A DNA stretch of 14,020 nt, from the IMG/VR virus record IMGVR_UViG_2737471843_000003, positions 1-14,020 of that record; one strand, written 5' to 3'. Both the position numbers and the translations under genes were made by a program. The notes beneath the pieces are model-generated. The model did no database searches and was not told where the DNA came from. It saw only the letters and a program-made list of their open reading frames with translations. Of this stretch, positions 1 through 8,106 are shown one piece after another. The DNA is from a virus. Its lineage: Duplodnaviria > Heunggongvirae > Uroviricota > Caudoviricetes. Position 1 is the first letter of the stretch. The number at the start of each line of letters is the position of its first letter.

Positions 1-342
1 ATGATGAAAAAAAGTATTCTGACGTTTCTGTTACTCACCAGTTCTGCAGCGGCGCTGGCTGCACCGCAGGTGATTACCGTCAGTCGTTTTGAAGTGGGTA
101 AAGACAAATGGGCGTTTAATCGCGAAGAGGTGATGCTGACTTGCAGACCGGGTAATGCTTTGTATGTCATTAACCCAAGTACCCTCGTGCAGTATCCTTT
201 AAACGATATCGCACAAAAGGAAGTTGCCAGTGGGAAGACTAAAGCCCAACCCATTTCGGTGATTCAGATTGATGATCCTAACAATCCCGGCGAAAAAATG
301 AGTCTGGCACCGTTTATAGAACGAGCTGAAAAACTCTGTTAA
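1..342 (+). CDS. yebY: Small secreted protein with N-terminal signal peptide, DUF2511/YebY-like
   Basis: ORF track 113 aa. The N-terminus [23 protein letters not shown] looks like a Sec signal peptide with an AxA cleavage site. I recognise the sequence as E. coli YebY from memory, not from a search. A hairpin plus T-run follows the stop. Confidence 0.6.
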
Positions 343-371
343 TTACCTAAAATAGCCTTTTGATTTCCAAT

Positions 372-413
372 AAAAAAACCGCCTCAGTTCTTTCACCAGA
401 ACGGGCGGTTTTT
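372..413. terminator. Rho-independent terminator downstream of yebY, A-run / GC stem / T-run, potentially bidirectional
   Basis: AAAAAAACCGCC at 372-383 pairs with GGCGG at 404-408, with an inner GTTC/GAAC pairing, followed by TTTTT at 409-413. The A-run on the other side would make it usable from the minus strand as well. Confidence 0.6.
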
Positions 414-469
414 AACATTTCAGCTGATGACCACCACGCTTTTTATTGACCATTTTGCACGCAAACTGG

Positions 470-500
470 AAAACCTGGCGTCGTCATCTATTCTTAAAGG
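470..500 (+). promoter_or_regulatory. Sigma-S-type promoter for sdsR
   Basis: A -10 element TATTCT at 489-494 preceded by C at 488 (the -13 C typical of sigma-S promoters), placed 6 nt upstream of the proposed SdsR 5' end at 501. No convincing -35 element. Confidence 0.45.
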
Positions 501-569
501 GCAAGGCAACTAAGCCTGCATTAATGCCAACTTTTAGCGCACGGCTCTCTCCCAAGAGCCATTTCCCTG

Positions 570-603
570 GACCGAATACAGGAATCGTATTCGGTCTTTT
601 TTT
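570..603 (+). terminator. Intrinsic terminator of SdsR
   Basis: GACCGAATAC (570-579), loop AGGAATC, GTATTCGGTC (587-596), then TTTTTTT (597-603). Read directly from the sequence. Confidence 0.75.
581..603. other. Putative attL core, the last ~23 bp of sdsR
   Basis: A tyrosine integrase gene ends 130 bp downstream. The terminal 23 bp of ryeB/sdsR has been reported as a recurrent phage attachment site in Salmonella and E. coli. The exact crossover cannot be determined from one junction. Confidence 0.4.
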
Positions 604-640
604 AATTGTATTTAAAATCAATTAGTTGCAAACGTCTCCC

Positions 641-670
641 CGAAATTACTCGAAATTTACTCGAATTTCT
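641..670 (+). repeat. Three tandem 10-11 bp direct repeats, candidate arm-type integrase binding sites
   Basis: CGAAATTACT (641-650), CGAAATTTACT (651-661), CGAATTTCT (662-670), read directly. They sit between the putative core and the int 3' end, like the P'1-P'3 arm sites of lambda attP. Confidence 0.4.
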
Positions 671-734
671 GTATTCCGGTCTTTTTTGGTTATATCACAA
701 CCAAAACACATTTAACAATCCATTTACGTTAAAA

Positions 735-1811
735 TCAGAGCAGTAAGTACGTTTTTTCTCTCTCATCAAGATACATTTTTGTTGTCTTCTCCGATGTGTG
801 GCCAAGTAGACGTTGAGCAAATTCTTCCCCACATGTTTCTTTGTACAATCGTCCAGCCAGGCTTCTGATCTCGTGAAAAGTTGGTGGGTTTTCACTGAAC
901 TGGATACCTGTTAATTTTCTGGCTGCGACAAATTTTTTTGTCAGGCCGTCCGGGTGAATGCTGCCGTCAGGGCTGTTTTTTCTAATCCCGGCACTGATTA
1001 GAAAATCTCCCCGGCTTACCAGGCGGCACCGTTCAACTACTGTACCAAGACGTAAACCAGCGACCGGAAGGCTGAGTGACAGGGGGATAGCAATCATCAT
1101 TCCTGTCTTAATTTGCCTGATGTGAAGACGATCATCATAAATATCACTGAACCGCATATTCGTTATGTCTTCGCGACGTTGTCCTGTTACAAGGGCTAAG
1201 TCCATAGCTAATGGGAACCATGCCGGAAGTTGATCTGCTGCCTCCCTGATGCAGTTGTATGTCTTTAGTTTCAGCCGTTCTCTTGTAACTACTATTTTCG
1301 GTGCTCTTGTTGGCGTTACTGGATTTTGAGATATACGCCCTTCAACAATGGCTTCGCGGAACATATCAGATAACACAGAACGCATTGATCCTGCCATCGT
1401 GTTTTTCCCTCCTTCAATCCACAAATCAAGAAACTCGGCAATATGGCGAGTGGTTATTTCTGTCAGTAAGATCCCTCCTAATTTTTCTTTTATTGTTTCC
1501 AGTTGATTTCCCCGAATTTTATAAGTATTTCTGGACACTTTTCTCCTTATAAGAATCGTTTTGTAACGTTCAATCCAGTCTGCCATAGTAAATGAGTCGA
1601 ACCCTTTAAGTTTTTCAATTAAGGCAGCAGGAGAGTAGTTTTTGTATATATAATGATTTGCTTCAATTGCCTGCGCGATTGCATCTCTTCTTGAAATTTT
1701 ACCTAGTGTAAATTCTTCTTTCGTAAGAGGGTTGCGCCAGTAATATGCTTTGTCCCTCCTTCGATATGTTAAGTTCCTAGGCAAATTGGGATCGTATTTT
1801 TTCCGCTGCAT
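735..1811 (-). CDS. int: Tyrosine recombinase, lambda Int-family integrase
   Basis: ORF track 358 aa. The N-terminus resembles the lambda Int arm-binding domain. The C-terminus carries the catalytic signature [11 protein letters not shown]...[15 protein letters not shown] (R, HxxR, Y). Its start overlaps the xis 3' end. Confidence 0.9.
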
Positions 1812-2058
1812 GTTTTAACTTCTCCAGTAACGGACTGTCTCTCCCTTGTCGCCCATTAGGCTGATGGTGTGTTATATCGGTATCAACCTTATTTGGGTTG
1901 ATATAGAAAGCCTCCGGAACCACCCTGTAACTCCTCCCGTGTAGTTCAGGTGCAGGATAAATGTTTCCATTCCTTGCCCATCGTCTCAGCGTTGATATTG
2001 ATGGTGGGTTATCCGGATATCTGAGTTTTCCCCACGTTTTGAGTGTCACAAGATTCAT
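1777..2058 (-). CDS. xis: Excisionase (Xis-like)
   Basis: The pattern VTLKTWGKL...STLRRWARNGNIYPAPELHGRSY resembles the lambda Xis winged helix. It overlaps int by 35 bp. I prefer the start at 2058 (AGAGG 7 nt upstream) over the track start at 2064. Confidence 0.7.
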   Translation of the reverse strand: MNLVTLKTWGKLRYPDNPPSISTLRRWARNGNIYPAPELHGRSYRVVPEAFYINPNKVDTDITHHQPNGRQGRDSPLLEKLKHAAEKIRSQFA

Positions 2059-2080
2059 TGCCATACCTCTTACGATATGA

Positions 2081-2164: not shown

Positions 2165-2353
2165 TCACGAGGGCCGAAGTTTCTCGCAATTAAAATTTAT
2201 CAGCTTTACTTTCTGCTCTCTGGAAACGCCTGCTTCTTTTTTCCCCGAGAGCATTTTTTCGCATTCTGATTTAGTTAGTTTAGATTTTGAATATCTTGTC
2301 CAGTTAGTAGGAGTGCCACCTTCCTTTTCAATAGTGGCGGTAATTTTATACAT
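2165..2353 (-). CDS. Small hypothetical phage protein, 62 aa, at the Rac ydaC position
   Basis: In frame with track ORF 2165..2425. An internal ATG at 2353 is preceded by GGAGG with 5-nt spacing, and overlaps the lar stop by 8 bp. The family is not confidently recognised. Confidence 0.5.
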   Translation of the reverse strand: MYKITATIEKEGGTPTNWTRYSKSKLTKSECEKMLSGKKEAGVSREQKVKLINFNCEKLRPS

Positions 2354-2540
2354 GAACACCTCCATTATTATTTCCAGTGGTTCGTTTATTCCATCGTTCG
2401 AGTGCTTCTTTTTCACTTCCACCATAGCCGGTTCGGGATTCGCATCCGTTACACTTCGCGCGGTAATATCCTGAAATGGCTTTCACCGTTACTGATGGAC
2501 AACCACAAAAAGGGCATGGTTTGACTTTTTCATACCGCAT
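2346..2540 (-). CDS. ralR: Lar-family restriction alleviation protein (RalR-like)
   Basis: Track ORF 2346..2555. The CPFCG...CNGCE zinc-ribbon-like motif and ALERWNKR are typical of the Lar family. A start at 2540 gives 64 aa, the Rac RalR length as I recall it. Confidence 0.7.
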   Translation of the reverse strand: MRYEKVKPCPFCGCPSVTVKAISGYYRAKCNGCESRTGYGGSEKEALERWNKRTTGNNNGGVHV

Positions 2541-2603
2541 TGTCTTTTCTCTCATATAATAAAGTTTTGTGATGGCGGTGAGGCTACACCGCCAAAGTCA
2601 ATA

Positions 2604-3707
2604 TCAGGAGCCGATATATTCTGGTTTCATATCTGTCAGTGTCGTTTTATACGCCTCATATAATTCACCCAGATGTGGTCGTGCAGCATTCAGCGTATTT
2701 TCCAGAGCAGTAAATTTTTGTTCTGCTTCTGGATCACCTGATGAAGGCAGGTCATTTATCATCTTCTCGATACTGGCAATAGCATTGAGACGGTGATGAC
2801 GCCGAACCACTTTTCCTTTAAGCTCGGCAAAGAATTCGCCGATCTGGTTTTTCTGATCCTCTATCTCTTGGCGTAATGCAGTGGTTTCCTCAGTCGTGGC
2901 CGCGCTTTCTATACGCTGCCGGAATTCATCAATCCACGCTTCGTCAATACGCTGTTCGATGGTTTCTGTTCGCTGCTCGCTTACCTCGCTATAATTCTGT
3001 ACCGACACAGGATTGATGATTTTTTCCTGTGGCTCTTCCAGTTCGTCCGGGGTATACACGCCCAGGATGACGTCAGGACAATAAAGGCGAGCCCAGTATT
3101 TCAACGCCAGATAGGCGAGCTGTTGTTTCGGGTTTGAGGTCCATAAAGGAGAATTACGCGTAATCACGCTGGAAAGAAACACCGGTTCTCCCCAGGTAAT
3201 CTCACTTTCACCGCGAAGAACTGCACCAACTCGAACTGAGAGACCATACTCATCTTCACTGGTCCAACATGGGATCGTTTCTTTTTTCTCATAGATTCCG
3301 CCTCCTTTGGCCGTTTTCTTAACGATCTCCACTCGGGTGCGAGAGCATTTCTCCCAGTCTCCCTCGTACTTGTAATGGAAGCGACCTACAATTGCACTTG
3401 AGCTAGAGATCACAGCGTTAACCAGTTGTGCTTCATAACCCAGAACTCCGTTTACCAGGTGTGTTTTCTGAGCCACAGCGTAGGGGTTCATGCCCCATTG
3501 CATAGCTTGCATGATGATTGCCATGCAGTCGGCAGGATTTCCGCGAAGGTGATCGGGAACTGTGACGGTGGCCTGTGCCATCAACCCGGCTACTGCCTGA
3601 AGTTGCGTCAACGCCTGAACGTTAAAAATAGTGTTACTGGCAGAAATGGTATTTGGTGTCTGCTCTGTCGTGATGATATTGGTATTTTGCATGGTCAGGT
3701 TCTCCAT
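2604..3707 (-). CDS. Single-strand annealing protein, RecT/Redbeta superfamily, partner of RecE
   Basis: ORF track 367 aa. The core ADCMAIIMQAMQWGMNPY...VNGVLGYEAQLVNAV fits the RecT/Redbeta pattern. It sits immediately downstream of recE with a 1-nt stop/start overlap. It is clearly not the canonical 269-aa K-12 RecT sequence. An alternative start at 3692 has GGAG upstream. Confidence 0.7.
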   Translation of the reverse strand: MENLTMQNTNIITTEQTPNTISASNTIFNVQALTQLQAVAGLMAQATVTVPDHLRGNPADCMAIIMQAMQWGMNPYAVAQKTHLVNGVLGYEAQLVNAVISSSSAIVGRFHYKYEGDWEKCSRTRVEIVKKTAKGGGIYEKKETIPCWTSEDEYGLSVRVGAVLRGESEITWGEPVFLSSVITRNSPLWTSNPKQQLAYLALKYWARLYCPDVILGVYTPDELEEPQEKIINPVSVQNYSEVSEQRTETIEQRIDEAWIDEFRQRIESAATTEETTALRQEIEDQKNQIGEFFAELKGKVVRRHHRLNAIASIEKMINDLPSSGDPEAEQKFTALENTLNAARPHLGELYEAYKTTLTDMKPEYIGS

Positions 3708-6700
3708 TAAGCCAGATGCAGTGCTTCAAGACGACGAAGATCAAAGTCGTTTAATTCGTCGGTATAACTTTCGGTAATCGGTGCTGGCCAGTTGTTTGTC
3801 TCCAGGGCTTCGTTTATCTGGCGTAGCGTCCGGCGATATTCCTGTCGACCAAGTTCAAGGAGTTCCTGCGAGGCTTCCACGACTGCCACCCAGTGATAGC
3901 CAGCATCTTTGTTGACGAAGATCCAGAAAAATTTGTCCAGGTTTGCCACATCGCAATACATTGCGGCGCTGAGGTGATAATCACGCTCAATAATTTCACG
4001 GTGCAGGCGATCTTTAAGTCGTTCCTGCCGCACATAACCGAGGCTGACTGACTTCACGTCAGCGCAAATGCTTTCGTATGGCAGCCGGATTTCGATATCA
4101 GGACGGACCCTGATTTCCAGCCCGGTTTCTTCATCAAACCCGAAATAGCTGATTTCAGATTTGCGATCCGGGTGGTTGAGTAGCCTTGCTGCATCGGTAT
4201 TGTTTTGCAGTGCCGCGTGAATATTTTTTGCCTGTTCATACATATCCGGACTGATAAACGTTTTCCCGGCGTTTTCTTCTTGCTGGCGTTTTTGCCAGTC
4301 CTCCAGTGTCACCAGTTCCGGGCGAATTTTCCGTGCGATTTCGGTTAATTGCTCTTTTGTGCCACTGATGTTGTAAGGCAAAGATTTAGCACGTTCTTTT
4401 TTTGCCAGTTCTGGATCTACAGTTTCAATTTGATCCAGAAGCTGCTCCCGTGCTCCACTGGTTTTCAACAGAGGAGGGAGGCTTGCGTTGTATTCTTTAA
4501 TACAGGCTTTCATTGCTGATGCTGTGTGTTTTTCCCCCTCAGGAATACGCCGAAATTCCACCGGAAGCGAACCGTAAAGGATGCCTGTTTCTTCGGCCCC
4601 AGCACTTACAGACAGTGGCTGTATAAGAGTGCTGTTGTAGCTTTCGATCCACTCTTTCATCTGCTCTGGTGTCATCAGTGCTGGCAGACTGGCATTGTGT
4701 TTTTTAATGATGGCGATCAGTTCGTTAGAAGTAGTAACCACATATTCAGGAACCGGTACCGGAATGGCATATTCATCTGCGAATTTATCCGTTTCCAGAA
4801 CATAGCTGTGAATGATCCGCCCACGCAGCAGTGCGTCACTTTCCTCGTTCGGAATAGTTCCGGCAATGTGCCGCCCGTGGTAATACATCAGGCTGATACG
4901 GGCATCCTTCAGCATCGTGCTGCTTATTCCGTTGGCGGAGTGATAAACCTCGTTCGGGAGGTTTTCATAGCGGCCTGGCTCGAAATATGACGGCCACATG
5001 ATTTCAGTTGCTACAGGAGCTGACGCTTCGCCAGTTTCATCACTGCAATTGCGATGCGGATCGCTGTCAGCATTCTCATTGTGCTGATGTTCAGCGCCTT
5101 CCATTTCCTCCGGATCTTTTTCCAGAGATTCATCCAGATTTTCTTCATTAAATGTTTCCTGATACGTTGCGTCGCCCATCGCCGCGCCACAATCAGGGCA
5201 GTTGCCCCCACCGATCTGACCGCAGGCGGTGCAGACTTTTTCCGGTTCTTGTTGCTCTTCTGGTTCAGGCTGTTTCGTTTCTGGCTCGTTTTGTTGCGTA
5301 TTTGGGCTGTTTTGTTCCGCTTTCTTGTCGTTCTGTTCCGTTTCTTGCTGGTTCTGGTTCACAGAGTCGAGGGTTTCAATCCCCTTAACCCATTTCGGAT
5401 CGTTCGGGTCGCTAATCCCTTCAACAAATTCTCCGCGAGAGGCAGCCAGTAATTTGTCTGCATCGACAGGATTTTTGGGCGGAATGTTTTTCCGGGCTTC
5501 ATGGAGTTCTGCCCGCAGTTTCTGATATTTCGCATCAACAGAATTTACCTGTGACTGAGCATCCAGCGGCTGCGTGTTCTGATGATGTTCAGTTGCATTC
5601 GGTTCCACTGTTTCAGCCGTTGCCTGTTCATCTGCCATTGCGCCAGATGGTTGTGGTTTTTCTTCATCGTCCTGTTTTCCTTCTTCTGTTACTCGCTGCG
5701 GCATCGGGGCAGAGGAGCGACCGCAGGCAATATCCACGATTTCCGGATCAGGGTTGGCATGATCGGTTTCAGTCAGTACTTTGTTCAGATATTCAGTGAC
5801 GTGTGCGGGGATGACCTCGATCCCAATTGGTGCTTCTTTCACGGACGCAACCACGATGGCGCGGGAATAATCCAGCCCGCCAGGCATGGTGATGAATTTG
5901 TCGCGGAAAACAGAAAAGGGTGGTTTATTTTCAGCGATAATTTCCTCAATGCGTTTAGCGTGTGCCGGATGAAGGTTATAAATGTCCACGTCCATTGAAC
6001 GGGCCAGTACGCCAGTGGCTACATCGCGTGCCAGTGACGTCAGATCGTGGACGAAACCTTCGCCGCGATCGGTGAGGTTCCCGCCGCCAGCATTAGCACC
6101 GGAAGCCGTGCGAGTGATGCGTGAAACACGATTTCCTTTCATCCACTCTTTTGTCAGCAGACCGCGATCGGTGTAGTCTGCGTCCAGGTATGCTTCGAAA
6201 AAAGCAGTCATCAGCCCCAGACTTGAATTGCCTGGATTAGGGAAAACTTTGTCAGTATCACGAACCAGTCTGTGAAGATCGCGAATCTCCAGCGGGTCGA
6301 GCAGGCTGGTTTTGTGGGAAACAGCTAGGGCAGTAACAGCTGGTAGTTCTTCGGCCCGTGCAATATGTAATGTCTGGAGTTCGTCGCGTGAAACGTGCGT
6401 TACCGGTTTTTCGCTGCCGTGTTGAGCAAGCCAGCGAATGGGCAGCTCTTGGCCAGAAATCGGGAGTAGCATATTCTCCTCAATCTCAGTCATGTCTTCG
6501 CCATTAACATTGGTATTGTCAGTGCTGTCTGGTTTGTACTGCGCAGAGGATGAGGGCGCGATAAATACCATTGTGATGCCATCTTCCCCGCCTTTTTCGT
6601 AACGGTTGCAGAATTCCGTATCAAATACGCCTTCTGGTGGAAGGTCATCAACAACGGGCAAATTGACGCGAACAGGTTTTTTAAAGTCATCTTCATCGTA

Positions 6701-6856
6701 GCCAGCATCGTCAATCGCAACAGCACCACGGGAGATGGCAATGGATAATTTTTTCGCTTCAGCCCAGTAGAAACCGCCTTTAATACCGAGACGTTTTCTT
6801 ACTTTGTCATTTTTTGCTTCGTAATACAGTGGGTAAACTTGTTTATCGGTGCTCAT
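3707..6856 (-). CDS. recE: Exonuclease VIII (RecE-family 5'-3' dsDNA exonuclease)
   Basis: ORF track 1049 aa. The C-terminal domain carries PD-(D/E)xK-type residues (RPDIEIR...CADVKS) and long stretches I recognise as RecE-like. It is about 180 aa longer than the 866-aa K-12 RecE as I remember it. Confidence 0.85.
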
Positions 6857-7697: not shown

Positions 7698-8106
7698 AAT
7701 TATCTCCATTTTTACAAATGAATTTTGTCGATGCGGTGCCTGGTGCCTCCAGGTGACGTTAACCAGTTAACAATTAACGCCGGATATTTCACCCATAACT
7801 CTGCTACGAAGGACAATAGCTTTTTAACTGTTCCGCGTGCGCTTAGCCGCATTCACCGCATCACAAAATTCACTTTAAAAAGGGGCGGCAGGGCAGCCAC
7901 GGAGTAGAACTGATGCCGCCAAAGACTACACACAGCAATGTCGTTATTTACAACCGGAGGCGCACTCCCACCATTTAAATTTAACAGACAAAACCGACTC
8001 TTTATGAATACCGGAAATGCGCCTTCGTGTTGTGCGCCTGTCTTTTTACCACTTCAGGCTCGGTGGTATACTGGAGTTCTCACACAACCAGTAATAAGGT
8101 ATTCCT

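What the first reader, a model, noticed from the sequence alone, without database searches (positions are those of the whole stretch)
497..745. RyeA antisense sRNA is probably rewired: its 5' region and promoter are replaced by phage DNA
RyeA is transcribed antisense to SdsR and, in K-12 as I recall, starts about 140 nt beyond the SdsR 3' end. Here that position falls in phage arm sequence and the int 3' end. Any antisense transcript across SdsR must therefore initiate from phage DNA, which could alter SdsR turnover.
Basis: partly seen in the sequence, partly recalled or inferred. Interest (0 to 1): 0.5.

Follow-up and report, generated by a model that had tools for sequence, protein, structure and literature searches.

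The report
Prophage junction splits the RyeA/SdsR locus
A lambda-type prophage sits in the terminator of the small RNA gene sdsR, so the antisense RNA RyeA has lost its own promoter and first 38 bases to the far end of the prophage and must now start in phage DNA, as was already reported for a Salmonella phage in 2008.

Summary
The junction is real. Window 1-604 is E. coli core DNA (yebY, sdsR). From 605 on it is the P' arm of a lambda-family prophage, with int at 735-1811. The shared att core is 578-604, inside the SdsR terminator.

In K-12, RyeA starts 38 nt beyond the SdsR 3' end; about 140 nt is the distance from the SdsR 5' end. The conclusion still holds. The RyeA +1 equivalent (about 641) and its validated -10 (TATGGT) lie beyond the junction. 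In a near-identical lysogen they sit about 49.5 kb away at attR. SdsR stays intact because the phage re-supplies its terminator 3' arm and U-tract.

About 4% of complete E. coli genomes have this site interrupted: 235 of 5426, and 228 of them by this integrase.

It has the same orientation and form as K-12's RyeA extended -10. It predicts a chimeric RyeA of about 313 nt. This is inferred, not shown.

K-12's own RyeA promoter aligns with the last codons of a related integrase, which suggests it is a fossil of an older integration.

The phenomenon was published for Salmonella phage PhiW104 (Balbontin 2008), so novelty is low.

The parts
1..342 (+). yebY CDS, the host core gene upstream of sdsR
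   Evidence: ORF list. RefSeq annotation of a 99.5% identical genome.
370..414 (.). Bidirectional hairpin: yebY terminator on +, RyeA terminator on - (412->370). It is intact.
   Evidence: RNAfold gives -20.6 kcal/mol, followed by a U7 run on the - strand. Identical to K-12. The K-12 RyeA 3' end maps to window 370.
500..603 (+). sdsR (ryeB), complete. Its last 15-26 nt are supplied by the phage copy of the core.
   Evidence: RF00111, 118 bits, full length. Alignment to K-12 sdsR. A589 and T598 match attP, whereas attR of STEC308 keeps the K-12 bases G and C.
370..604 (-). Retained host part of ryeA, corresponding to K-12 RyeA nt ~38-272. It includes the full complement of SdsR.
   Evidence: RF00101, 179 bits, at 607->463. 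That model covers only RyeA nt ~35-179. Alignment to K-12.
578..604 (.). att core: a 27-bp segment shared by attL, attR, attP and attB (ACAGGAATCGTrTTCGGTCTyTTTTTA). It is the loop, 3' arm and U-tract of the SdsR terminator.
   Evidence: Four-way alignment of window, K-12, STEC308 attR and phage attP.
580..586 (.). Candidate 7-bp overlap (strand-exchange) region, AGGAATC. It is the hairpin loop, flanked by the inverted stem arms that would act as core-type sites.
   Evidence: The crossover is bracketed to 578-588 by the attP/attB polymorphisms at 577 and 589. The 7-nt loop comes from RNAfold. The overlap assignment is an inference from the lambda paradigm.
605..734 (.). Phage P' arm of attL, replacing K-12's RyeA 5' region and promoter
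   Evidence: No similarity to K-12. 96% identical to the attP flank of PP818812.1.
616..628 (+). IHF-consensus site AATCAATTAGTTG (WATCAANNNNTTR)
   Evidence: Pattern match. The position is conserved among 20 P' arms. Function is inferred.
639..668 (+). Three direct arm-type repeats: CCCGAAATT, CTCGAAATT, CTCGAATTT
   Evidence: Sequence. Conserved in all clade-1 arms. Int has the lambda arm-binding domain PF09003.
671..687 (+). Second copy of the core right half, with one extra C (GTATTCCGGTCTTTTTT)
   Evidence: Sequence. Conserved across arms. One IMG/VR variant (L184) has the interval between the two copies deleted.
689..699 (-). Conserved extended -10-like box TGTGATATAAC (hexamer TATAAC, 694->689). 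This is the candidate phage-borne RyeA promoter, with predicted TSS ~682.
   Evidence: TGTG.TATAA is invariant in 20 distinct arms. 42 of 46 unique clade-1 arms carry it at a fixed offset. It has the same form and orientation as the validated K-12 -10, TGTGTTATGGT. Not shown to be active.
713..718 (-). -35-like TTGTTA, 18 nt upstream of the box
   Evidence: ATGTTAA is conserved in the arm alignment. A weak match to TTGACA (4 of 6).
605..632 (-). Alternative promoter-like site TTTGCA-N16-TACAAT, next to the core
   Evidence: The only hit of the consensus scan (1 found against 4.1 expected in shuffles). Not conserved among arms.
735..1811 (-). int, a lambda-family tyrosine integrase transcribed towards sdsR
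   Evidence: PF00589, PF22022 and PF09003. PHROG 7244. 98.9% identical to the PP818812.1 integrase.
1777..2064 (-). xis (excisionase)
   Evidence: PF07825, E = 6.5e-14. RefSeq annotation of STEC308.

Best explanation
Window 578-734 is the attL (B-O-P') junction of an active lambda-family prophage. It has a Rac-like early region with ralR/RalA, recET and kilR. Its integrase recombines within the terminator hairpin of sdsR.

The phage copy of the core re-supplies the 3' arm and U-tract of the terminator, so SdsR stays whole. The overlapping antisense gene ryeA is cut at its nt ~38. Its sigma70 promoter (-10 TATGGT) and first 38 nt go to attR beside pphA, about 49.5 kb away. Its remaining ~234 nt, including the full SdsR complement and its terminator, stay at attL. 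This much is shown by sequence.

Inferred: antisense transcription across sdsR is re-established from the P' arm. The likely source is a conserved extended -10-like box (TGTGATATAAC, 699->689, - strand) with a weak -35 (TTGTTA, 718->713). This would give a chimeric RyeA' of about 313 nt (682->370), with 78 nt of phage-derived 5' leader (682->605). Because the hexamer ends in C rather than T, it is probably weaker than the native promoter. That would mean less RyeA, earlier or higher SdsR, and less transcriptional interference at PsdsR.

Additional antisense RNA is expected from read-through of int and early-left transcripts, since no intrinsic terminator lies between int and the RyeA terminator. 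pphA also loses the sdsR-promoter read-through that drives it in K-12.
For: Structure:
- Similarity to all 5426 E. coli genomes ends at 604.
- The four-way attL/attR/attP/attB alignment shows a 27-bp core, with phage-type bases in attL and host-type bases in attR.
- An intact attP is present in a deposited phage genome.
- Int carries a lambda arm-binding domain and Xis is adjacent.
- Three arm-type repeats and an IHF consensus are present.

RyeA geometry:
- K-12 annotation.
- TSS and 3' ends mapped by primer extension and RACE.
- The -10 TATGGT is identified from the mutagenic primers, and changing it to CTCGAG abolishes RyeA.
- The native promoter sequence is intact at attR of STEC308.

Phage-borne promoter:
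- TGTG.TATAA is invariant in 20 distinct arms whose integrases are 63-99% identical, while neighbouring non-coding positions vary.
- 42 of 46 unique clade-1 arms have TGnTATAA[C/G/A] ending +91/92 from the core.
- The strict motif occurs in 111 of 234 loci, against 2.2 expected from shuffles and 0 in the opposite orientation.

Experimental precedent:
- PhiW104 lysogeny changes the 5' part of ryeA, lowers RyeA and raises RyeB.
- Salmonella and Shigella SraC is ~35 nt longer, with its -10 ~35 bp further out. That matches the 36-nt offset between the K-12 box and the arm boxes.

Other:
- No - strand terminator lies between 735 and 605, and the RyeA terminator is intact.
- pphA is driven by read-through from PsdsR in K-12.
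Against: No expression data exist for this lysogen, so the promoter assignment is purely comparative.

The hexamer TATAAC lacks the highly conserved T at -7. The consensus scan did not call it, and that scan found fewer promoter-like sites than shuffles (1 against 4.1).

The conserved box could instead be a recombination-protein binding site. It could also be an inert relic of an older integrase 3' end that rides along with the arm.

Many of the loci compared are related prophages. The motif counts therefore overstate independent support.

The terminator stem energy is unchanged (-15.8 kcal/mol in both), so no effect on SdsR termination can be claimed beyond a longer U-run (7 against 5).
Confidence: 0.72

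Rival explanations
1. There is no dedicated promoter in the arm. RyeA is effectively lost in the lysogen. The only antisense RNA over sdsR is read-through from int and the early-left operon: negligible in the repressed prophage and massive on induction. This would be analogous to lambda 'escape synthesis' of gal through attL. SdsR is then simply de-repressed.
For: int is transcribed towards sdsR, with no intrinsic terminator before the RyeA terminator. The box has a non-consensus -7 C. Promoter-like hits are not enriched. The summarised Salmonella data report decreased RyeA.
Against: The non-coding box TGTG.TATAA is invariant across diverged arms and has the form of the validated K-12 -10. PhiW104 lysogens are reported to still make a modified RyeA, not none. 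Salmonella and Shigella make a ~35 nt longer SraC, which fits a start at this position.
Confidence: 0.22
2. The antisense RNA starts from the core-proximal site TTTGCA-N16-TACAAT (632->605). This would give a ~229-nt RyeA' that begins in the A-run opposite the SdsR U-tract.
For: It is the only site returned by the sigma70 consensus scan (9 of 12 matches). It would start close to the 5' end of the Rfam SraC_RyeA model.
Against: TACAAT is present only in arms whose integrases are at least 97% identical; other clade-1 arms, including L207 (AAAATT at that position), lack it. It overlaps the IHF consensus site. The scan result is below chance expectation.
Confidence: 0.05
3. RyeA is unaffected, because the Rfam SraC_RyeA model matches full length (1-145, 179 bits).
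Against: The model spans only K-12 RyeA nt ~35-179. It therefore cannot see the first 38 nt or the promoter. Both are absent from this side of the junction.
Confidence: 0.01

Closest known systems
Salmonella phage PhiW104 and the ryeA/ryeB insertion hot spot (Balbontin et al. 2008, J Bacteriol 190:4075; read here only through the summaries in PMC7380047, PMC3333887 and PMC3603311)
   Same: The attachment site lies in the last ~23 bp of ryeB/sdsR, which is internal to ryeA. Lysogeny replaces the 5' part of ryeA. RyeA expression was reported to fall and RyeB to rise.
   Different: Here the host is E. coli and the prophage has a Rac-like early region. I could not check whether PhiW104's integrase and arm belong to the same clade. 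No expression data exist for this case.
K-12 SdsR/RyeA pair: mutually antisense sRNAs described as a toxin/antitoxin pair (Choi et al. 2019, PMC6610125)
   Same: sdsR, the SdsR-complementary part of ryeA and the RyeA terminator are identical or nearly so.
   Different: The sigma70 ryeA promoter (TATGGT) and RyeA nt 1-38 are not adjacent. pphA is no longer downstream of sdsR.
Phages that integrate into the 3' end of tRNA or tmRNA genes and carry a replacement 3' end (general principle; lambda-type attP with IHF and arm-type sites)
   Same: The core equals the 3' terminal hairpin of a structured RNA gene. The phage copy restores the gene's 3' end. Int has an arm-binding domain, and the P' arm has three arm-type sites and an IHF-like site.
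   Different: The target is a bidirectional sRNA locus. Restoring one gene (sdsR) necessarily truncates the other (ryeA) unless the arm also brings a promoter.
Lambda prophage read-through at attL ('escape synthesis' of gal after induction; from my own knowledge, not tested)
   Same: int lies next to attL and is transcribed outwards into host DNA, with no terminator before the junction.
   Different: Here the read-through would be antisense to an abundant sigmaS-dependent sRNA and would end at the RyeA terminator.

Membership tests
SdsR_RyeB sRNA (RF00111) | Covariance-model match above the gathering score, full length | tested here: met
   118.1 bits against GA 38, model positions 1-100.
SdsR_RyeB sRNA (RF00111) | Located downstream of yebY, with a Rho-independent terminator | tested here: met
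   yebY at 1-342. Hairpin at 569-597 followed by U7.
SdsR_RyeB sRNA (RF00111) | SigmaS-dependent promoter | not tested
   The upstream sequence is identical to K-12. Activity was not assessed.
RyeA/SraC gene as defined in K-12 (272 nt, b4432) | Sequence complementary to all of SdsR, plus the 3' terminator | tested here: met
   RF00101, 179.1 bits. Terminator at 412->370 is intact.
RyeA/SraC gene as defined in K-12 (272 nt, b4432) | Native 5' 38 nt and sigma70 promoter (-10 TATGGT) contiguous with the rest | tested here: not met
   Similarity ends at 604. The promoter is found at attR in STEC308. The -10 is defined by Choi et al..
Lambda-type attL (B-O-P') of a tyrosine-integrase prophage | A common core shared by attL, attR, attP and attB | tested here: met
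   27-bp core at 578-604 in all four.
Lambda-type attL (B-O-P') of a tyrosine-integrase prophage | Adjacent integrase with catalytic and arm-binding domains, plus an excisionase | tested here: met
   PF00589, PF22022, PF09003 and PF07825.
Lambda-type attL (B-O-P') of a tyrosine-integrase prophage | Repeated arm-type sites and an IHF site in the arm | tested here: met
   Three CYCGAAWTT repeats at 639-668 and WATCAANNNNTTR at 616-628, conserved in 20 arms. This is sequence evidence only.
Lambda-type attL (B-O-P') of a tyrosine-integrase prophage | 7-bp overlap region flanked by inverted core-type sites | tested here: inconclusive
   The crossover is bracketed to 578-588, which contains the 7-nt hairpin loop between inverted stem arms. 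The cleavage points are unknown.
ryeB-targeting phages of the PhiW104 type (Balbontin 2008) | att within the last ~23 bp of ryeB, so that ryeA's 5' portion is replaced | tested here: met
   Core at 578-604, compared with the SdsR 3' end at 603.
ryeB-targeting phages of the PhiW104 type (Balbontin 2008) | Lower RyeA and higher RyeB in lysogens | not testable with these tools
   Needs RNA measurements.

The most novel reading that the evidence does not exclude
RyeA/SraC may be a phage-supplied antisense RNA throughout the Enterobacteriaceae. Its promoter would always lie in the P' arm or integrase 3' end of an sdsR-targeting element.

K-12's experimentally validated extended -10 (TGTTATGGT) would then be the fossil of the last codons (..E-Y-V-M-V-stop: TAT GTT ATG GTT) of a second-clade integrase. 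The adjacent pphA would be a NinI-like phage phosphatase left from the same remnant.

Present-day phages, including this one, would carry their own version of the promoter (TGTGATATAAC). Lysogeny would then swap one phage-derived RyeA promoter for another rather than break a host gene.
Probability: 0.45. Interest if true: 0.55.

Novelty: new member of a known kind. Interest (0 to 1): 0.33.

Why it matters
SdsR is among the most conserved sigmaS-dependent sRNAs. Its targets include tolC, mutS, ompD and hilD. RyeA limits when SdsR appears.

About 4% of complete E. coli genomes, many of them Shiga-toxin-producing strains, carry an interruption at this site (235 of 5426, 228 by this integrase). 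In them three things differ from K-12:
- the RyeA promoter is exchanged;
- the native RyeA promoter fires into the prophage at attR;
- pphA is cut off from the sdsR promoter.

The practical lesson is that a full-length Rfam SraC_RyeA hit does not mean an intact ryeA gene.

If the fossil reading is right, the locus is a clear and easily tested case of an antisense sRNA promoter born from an integrase gene remnant.

Tried and rejected
1. The full-length Rfam RF00101 hit as evidence of an intact RyeA. Rejected: the model covers only RyeA nt ~35-179.

2. The idea that the phage-supplied terminator is stronger. Rejected: stem energy is -15.8 kcal/mol in both K-12 and the window. Only the U-run differs, 7 against 5. 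A589 also occurs in at least 33 uninterrupted genomes (268 carriers against 235 interrupted sites).

3. The core-proximal TTTGCA-N16-TACAAT as the main promoter. It is not conserved among arms and the scan result is below chance.

4. The AT-rich hairpin at 683-705 as a terminator for int or for sdsR read-through. It has no U-run on either strand, and the hairpin is not conserved, although the sequence box is.

5. Reading Balbontin et al. 2008 directly. It is not held by DOI or PMC id, so I relied on three papers that summarise it.

6. Fetching the S. Typhimurium LT2/SL1344 locus to tie the box to the mapped SraC. The only Salmonella YebY in the listed hits led to a different strain (CP191473.1), which is itself a lysogen of the same phage type. 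Froehlich's Supplementary Figure S1 is not held.

7. Searching deposited phages for more attP copies. Only two exist: PP818812.1 and Salmonella phage ZC-S1_prp.

8. Literature searches for this integration site in E. coli (sdsR, yebY, pphA and ryeB with prophage). No E. coli-specific description was found.

Full report
**Observation**

The window begins with yebY (1-342, +). An Rfam scan finds a complete SdsR at 504-603 (+) and, on the opposite strand, a full-length SraC_RyeA match at 607->463. Alignment to K-12 places the SdsR 5' end at 500.

A search of 5426 complete E. coli genomes shows that every genome matches 1-604. Only 228 continue into the next 500 bases. Alignment with K-12 shows identity up to 604, apart from two substitutions at 589 and 598, and no similarity afterwards.

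From 735 to 1811 (-) lies a tyrosine integrase with catalytic, central and lambda-type arm-binding domains. An excisionase follows it.

RefSeq K-12 places ryeA at 1923066..1923337 (+) and sdsR at 1923104..1923207 (-). RyeA therefore starts 38 nt beyond the SdsR 3' end. About 140 nt is the distance to the SdsR 5' end.

Choi et al. 2019 agree. They mapped the ends by primer extension and RACE and found a ~270-nt RyeA ending at a Rho-independent terminator.

In window coordinates a K-12-type RyeA would run 641->370.

**Anatomy of the junction**

A deposited phage genome (PP818812.1) is 98% identical to window 573-1811 and contains the uninterrupted attP. A near-identical lysogen, STEC308, supplies attR next to pphA.

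Aligning attL (window), attR, attP and attB (K-12) gives a 27-bp common core at 578-604, ACAGGAATCGTrTTCGGTCTyTTTTTA. attL carries the attP bases A589 and T598. attR carries the K-12 bases G and C. To the left, attP differs from attB at 577. The crossover is therefore bracketed to 578-588.

This interval contains the 7-nt loop (AGGAATC, 580-586) of the SdsR terminator, whose stem arms are inverted repeats. That is the geometry of a lambda-type core, with two inverted core sites around a 7-bp overlap. This last step is inference.

The arm to the right has:
- a perfect IHF consensus at 616-628;
- three direct repeats CYCGAAWTT at 639-668;
- a second copy of the core's right half, with one extra C, at 671-687.

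In STEC308 the two cores are about 49.5 kb apart.

**What happens to the two sRNA genes**

SdsR is regenerated. The phage copy of the core provides the 3' arm and U-tract of its terminator. The stem energy is unchanged (-15.8 kcal/mol in both) and the U-run is longer, 7 against 5.

RyeA is split. Its terminator (412->370) and the segment complementary to all of SdsR remain at attL.

The mutagenic primers of Choi et al. show that the ryeA -10 is TATGGT, in the context TGTGTGT-TATGGT-TGACTATAAAG. Replacing it with CTCGAG abolishes RyeA. This promoter and RyeA nt 1-38 are intact at attR in STEC308. There they now point into the phage P arm.

The Rfam model covers only RyeA nt ~35-179. That is why it reports a full-length hit despite the truncation.

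**Where antisense transcription can now start**

The consensus scan finds one sigma70-like site on the - strand, TTTGCA-N16-TACAAT at 632->605. That is 1 hit against 4.1 expected in shuffles. The scan finds no - strand terminator between int and the core, and folding agrees.

To look for conserved signals I scanned one representative genome per species and IMG/VR for the core. This gave 241 occurrences, 234 of them with enough flanking DNA to analyse. Ninety-five have a full integrase beside the core, and these fall into two clades by identity to the window's Int: 60% or more (clade 1) and about 41-56% (clade 2; most 50-54%).

Twenty distinct clade-1 arms, aligned on the RyeA strand, show sharp footprints:
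- the IHF site;
- the three arm repeats;
- the core-like box;
- an invariant TGTG.TATAA;
- an ATGTTAA box 18 nt upstream of it.

In the window these last two are TGTGATATAAC (699->689) and TTGTTA (718->713). The core-proximal TACAAT is not conserved.

Of 46 unique clade-1 arms, 42 carry TGnTATAA[C/G/A] ending +91/92 from the core. The strict motif occurs in 111 of 234 loci, against 2.2 expected from shuffles and none in the opposite orientation.

The box has the same form and orientation as K-12's validated TGTGTTATGGT. It predicts a start near 682 and a chimeric RyeA' of about 313 nt.

Two published observations fit this. PhiW104 lysogens of Salmonella have a ryeA with a changed 5' portion, less RyeA and more RyeB. 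Salmonella and Shigella SraC is ~35 nt longer than in E. coli, with the -10 box ~35 bp further out.

The weaknesses are a C at -7, no expression data, and relatedness among the loci compared. The box might be a protein-binding site or an inert relic.

**A lead beyond the finding**

Clade-2 integrases end ...KKYLDARGAEYVMV-stop. Their last codons, TAT GTT ATG GTT, contain TGTTATGGT, which is exactly the K-12 ryeA extended -10.

The K-12 flank at +50..+114 aligns with a clade-2 integrase 3' end at +86..+149. The score is 31, against 16.6 +/- 2.2 in 2000 shuffles, none of which reached it. The 36-nt offset corresponds to loss of the arm repeats.

Thirteen of 90 integrase-less species keep recognisable 15-35-residue integrase C-terminal remnants beside sdsR. 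Fifty-nine of 101 unique integrase-less flanks keep one of the two box types.

pphA, the gene that follows in K-12, matches the phage NinI-like phosphatase family at E = 7e-88.

The 'empty' K-12 site therefore looks like a decayed attL, and the native ryeA promoter looks like an exapted integrase 3' end. I rate this about 0.7 likely. It is not proven.

**Consequences**

In K-12 the two RNAs degrade each other. ryeA transcription interferes with the sdsR promoter, and a ryeA promoter mutant makes SdsR earlier. The effect on SdsR level is about 1.5-fold. Their duplex is the most abundant RNase III substrate in stationary phase.

A weaker, phage-borne promoter would shift this balance modestly towards SdsR.

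A more certain change concerns pphA. In K-12 it is transcribed mainly by read-through from the sdsR promoter. In the lysogen it is ~49.5 kb away.

On prophage induction, early-left and int transcription should read across sdsR in antisense. This is inference.

**Comparison and novelty**

The site is interrupted in 235 of 5426 complete E. coli genomes, 228 times by this integrase. One other case is an IS1 8 nt beyond sdsR. The same attL type occurs in a Salmonella enterica chromosome and in a Salmonella phage.

The essential point is published for Salmonella: the att lies in the last ~23 bp of ryeB, ryeA's 5' part is replaced and expression changes. I found no E. coli-specific description in the held literature.

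This is a new member of a known kind.

Noticed in passing
STEC308 attR: L003:29440-29610 (NZ_CP091020.1, ~2252447): The orphaned native ryeA promoter, RyeA nt 1-38 and the core now point into the phage P arm and the tail-fibre region, antisense to a DUF4376 gene. They could produce a new chimeric transcript that still carries ~26 nt complementary to the SdsR 3' end.
   Followed up: partly
window 604/605 and K-12 pphA (L001:814-1470): pphA is transcribed mainly by read-through from the sdsR promoter in K-12 (Choi 2019). The prophage separates it from that promoter by ~49.5 kb. pphA itself is a NinI-like phage phosphatase (PHROG 246, E = 7e-88).
   Followed up: partly
PP818812.1 (L004): A record named 'Actinobacillus phage vB_Apl-pPE4' (host given as A. 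pleuropneumoniae) is 98% identical to this E. coli prophage. It carries an attP for the enterobacterial sdsR terminator. The host assignment looks doubtful.
   Followed up: no
L007 (NZ_CP116976.1, strain CUVM53), ~3248-3945: An IS1 is inserted about 8 nt beyond the SdsR 3' end, between sdsR and the ryeA promoter. pphA is frameshifted. This is an independent way of cutting RyeA off from its promoter.
   Followed up: partly
L184 (IMG/VR UViG_2728369554_000022), core at ~577 on the - strand: This is a 99%-identical integrase whose arm lacks the whole interval between the core GGTCTTTTT and the core-like repeat. The IHF site and all three arm repeats are deleted. The TGTGATATAAC box is therefore brought next to sdsR. 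The deletion suggests recombination between the two repeats and a prophage that can no longer excise.
   Followed up: no
window 671-687 compared with 588-604: The P' arm holds a second copy of the core's right half (GTATTCCGGTCTTTTTT, one extra C). It is conserved in both integrase clades. Its role is unknown: possibly an extra core-type Int site, or part of the transcript start region.
   Followed up: partly
window 2169-2347 (+) and 2165-2555 (-): RalA antitoxin sRNA (RF02694, 221 bits) lies opposite ralR. Together with recT/recE (2604-6856), this gives the prophage a Rac-like early-left region, although it uses a different att site from Rac.
   Followed up: no
window 7883-7934 (-): A DicF-family sRNA (RF00039, 61.6 bits) lies in the immunity-proximal region, near ydfABC/kilR-like genes.
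   Followed up: no
window 589 and 598: The terminator variant with A589 occurs in 268 E. coli genomes, but only 235 have an interrupted site. At least 33 uninterrupted sites therefore carry the 'phage-type' base. This could be natural polymorphism or a scar of past integration and excision.
   Followed up: partly
Rfam RF00101 hit, window 607->463: The SraC_RyeA model spans only the part of RyeA around the SdsR overlap (K-12 RyeA nt ~35-179). Automated annotation will therefore call ryeA present and complete in lysogens where it is truncated.
   Followed up: yes
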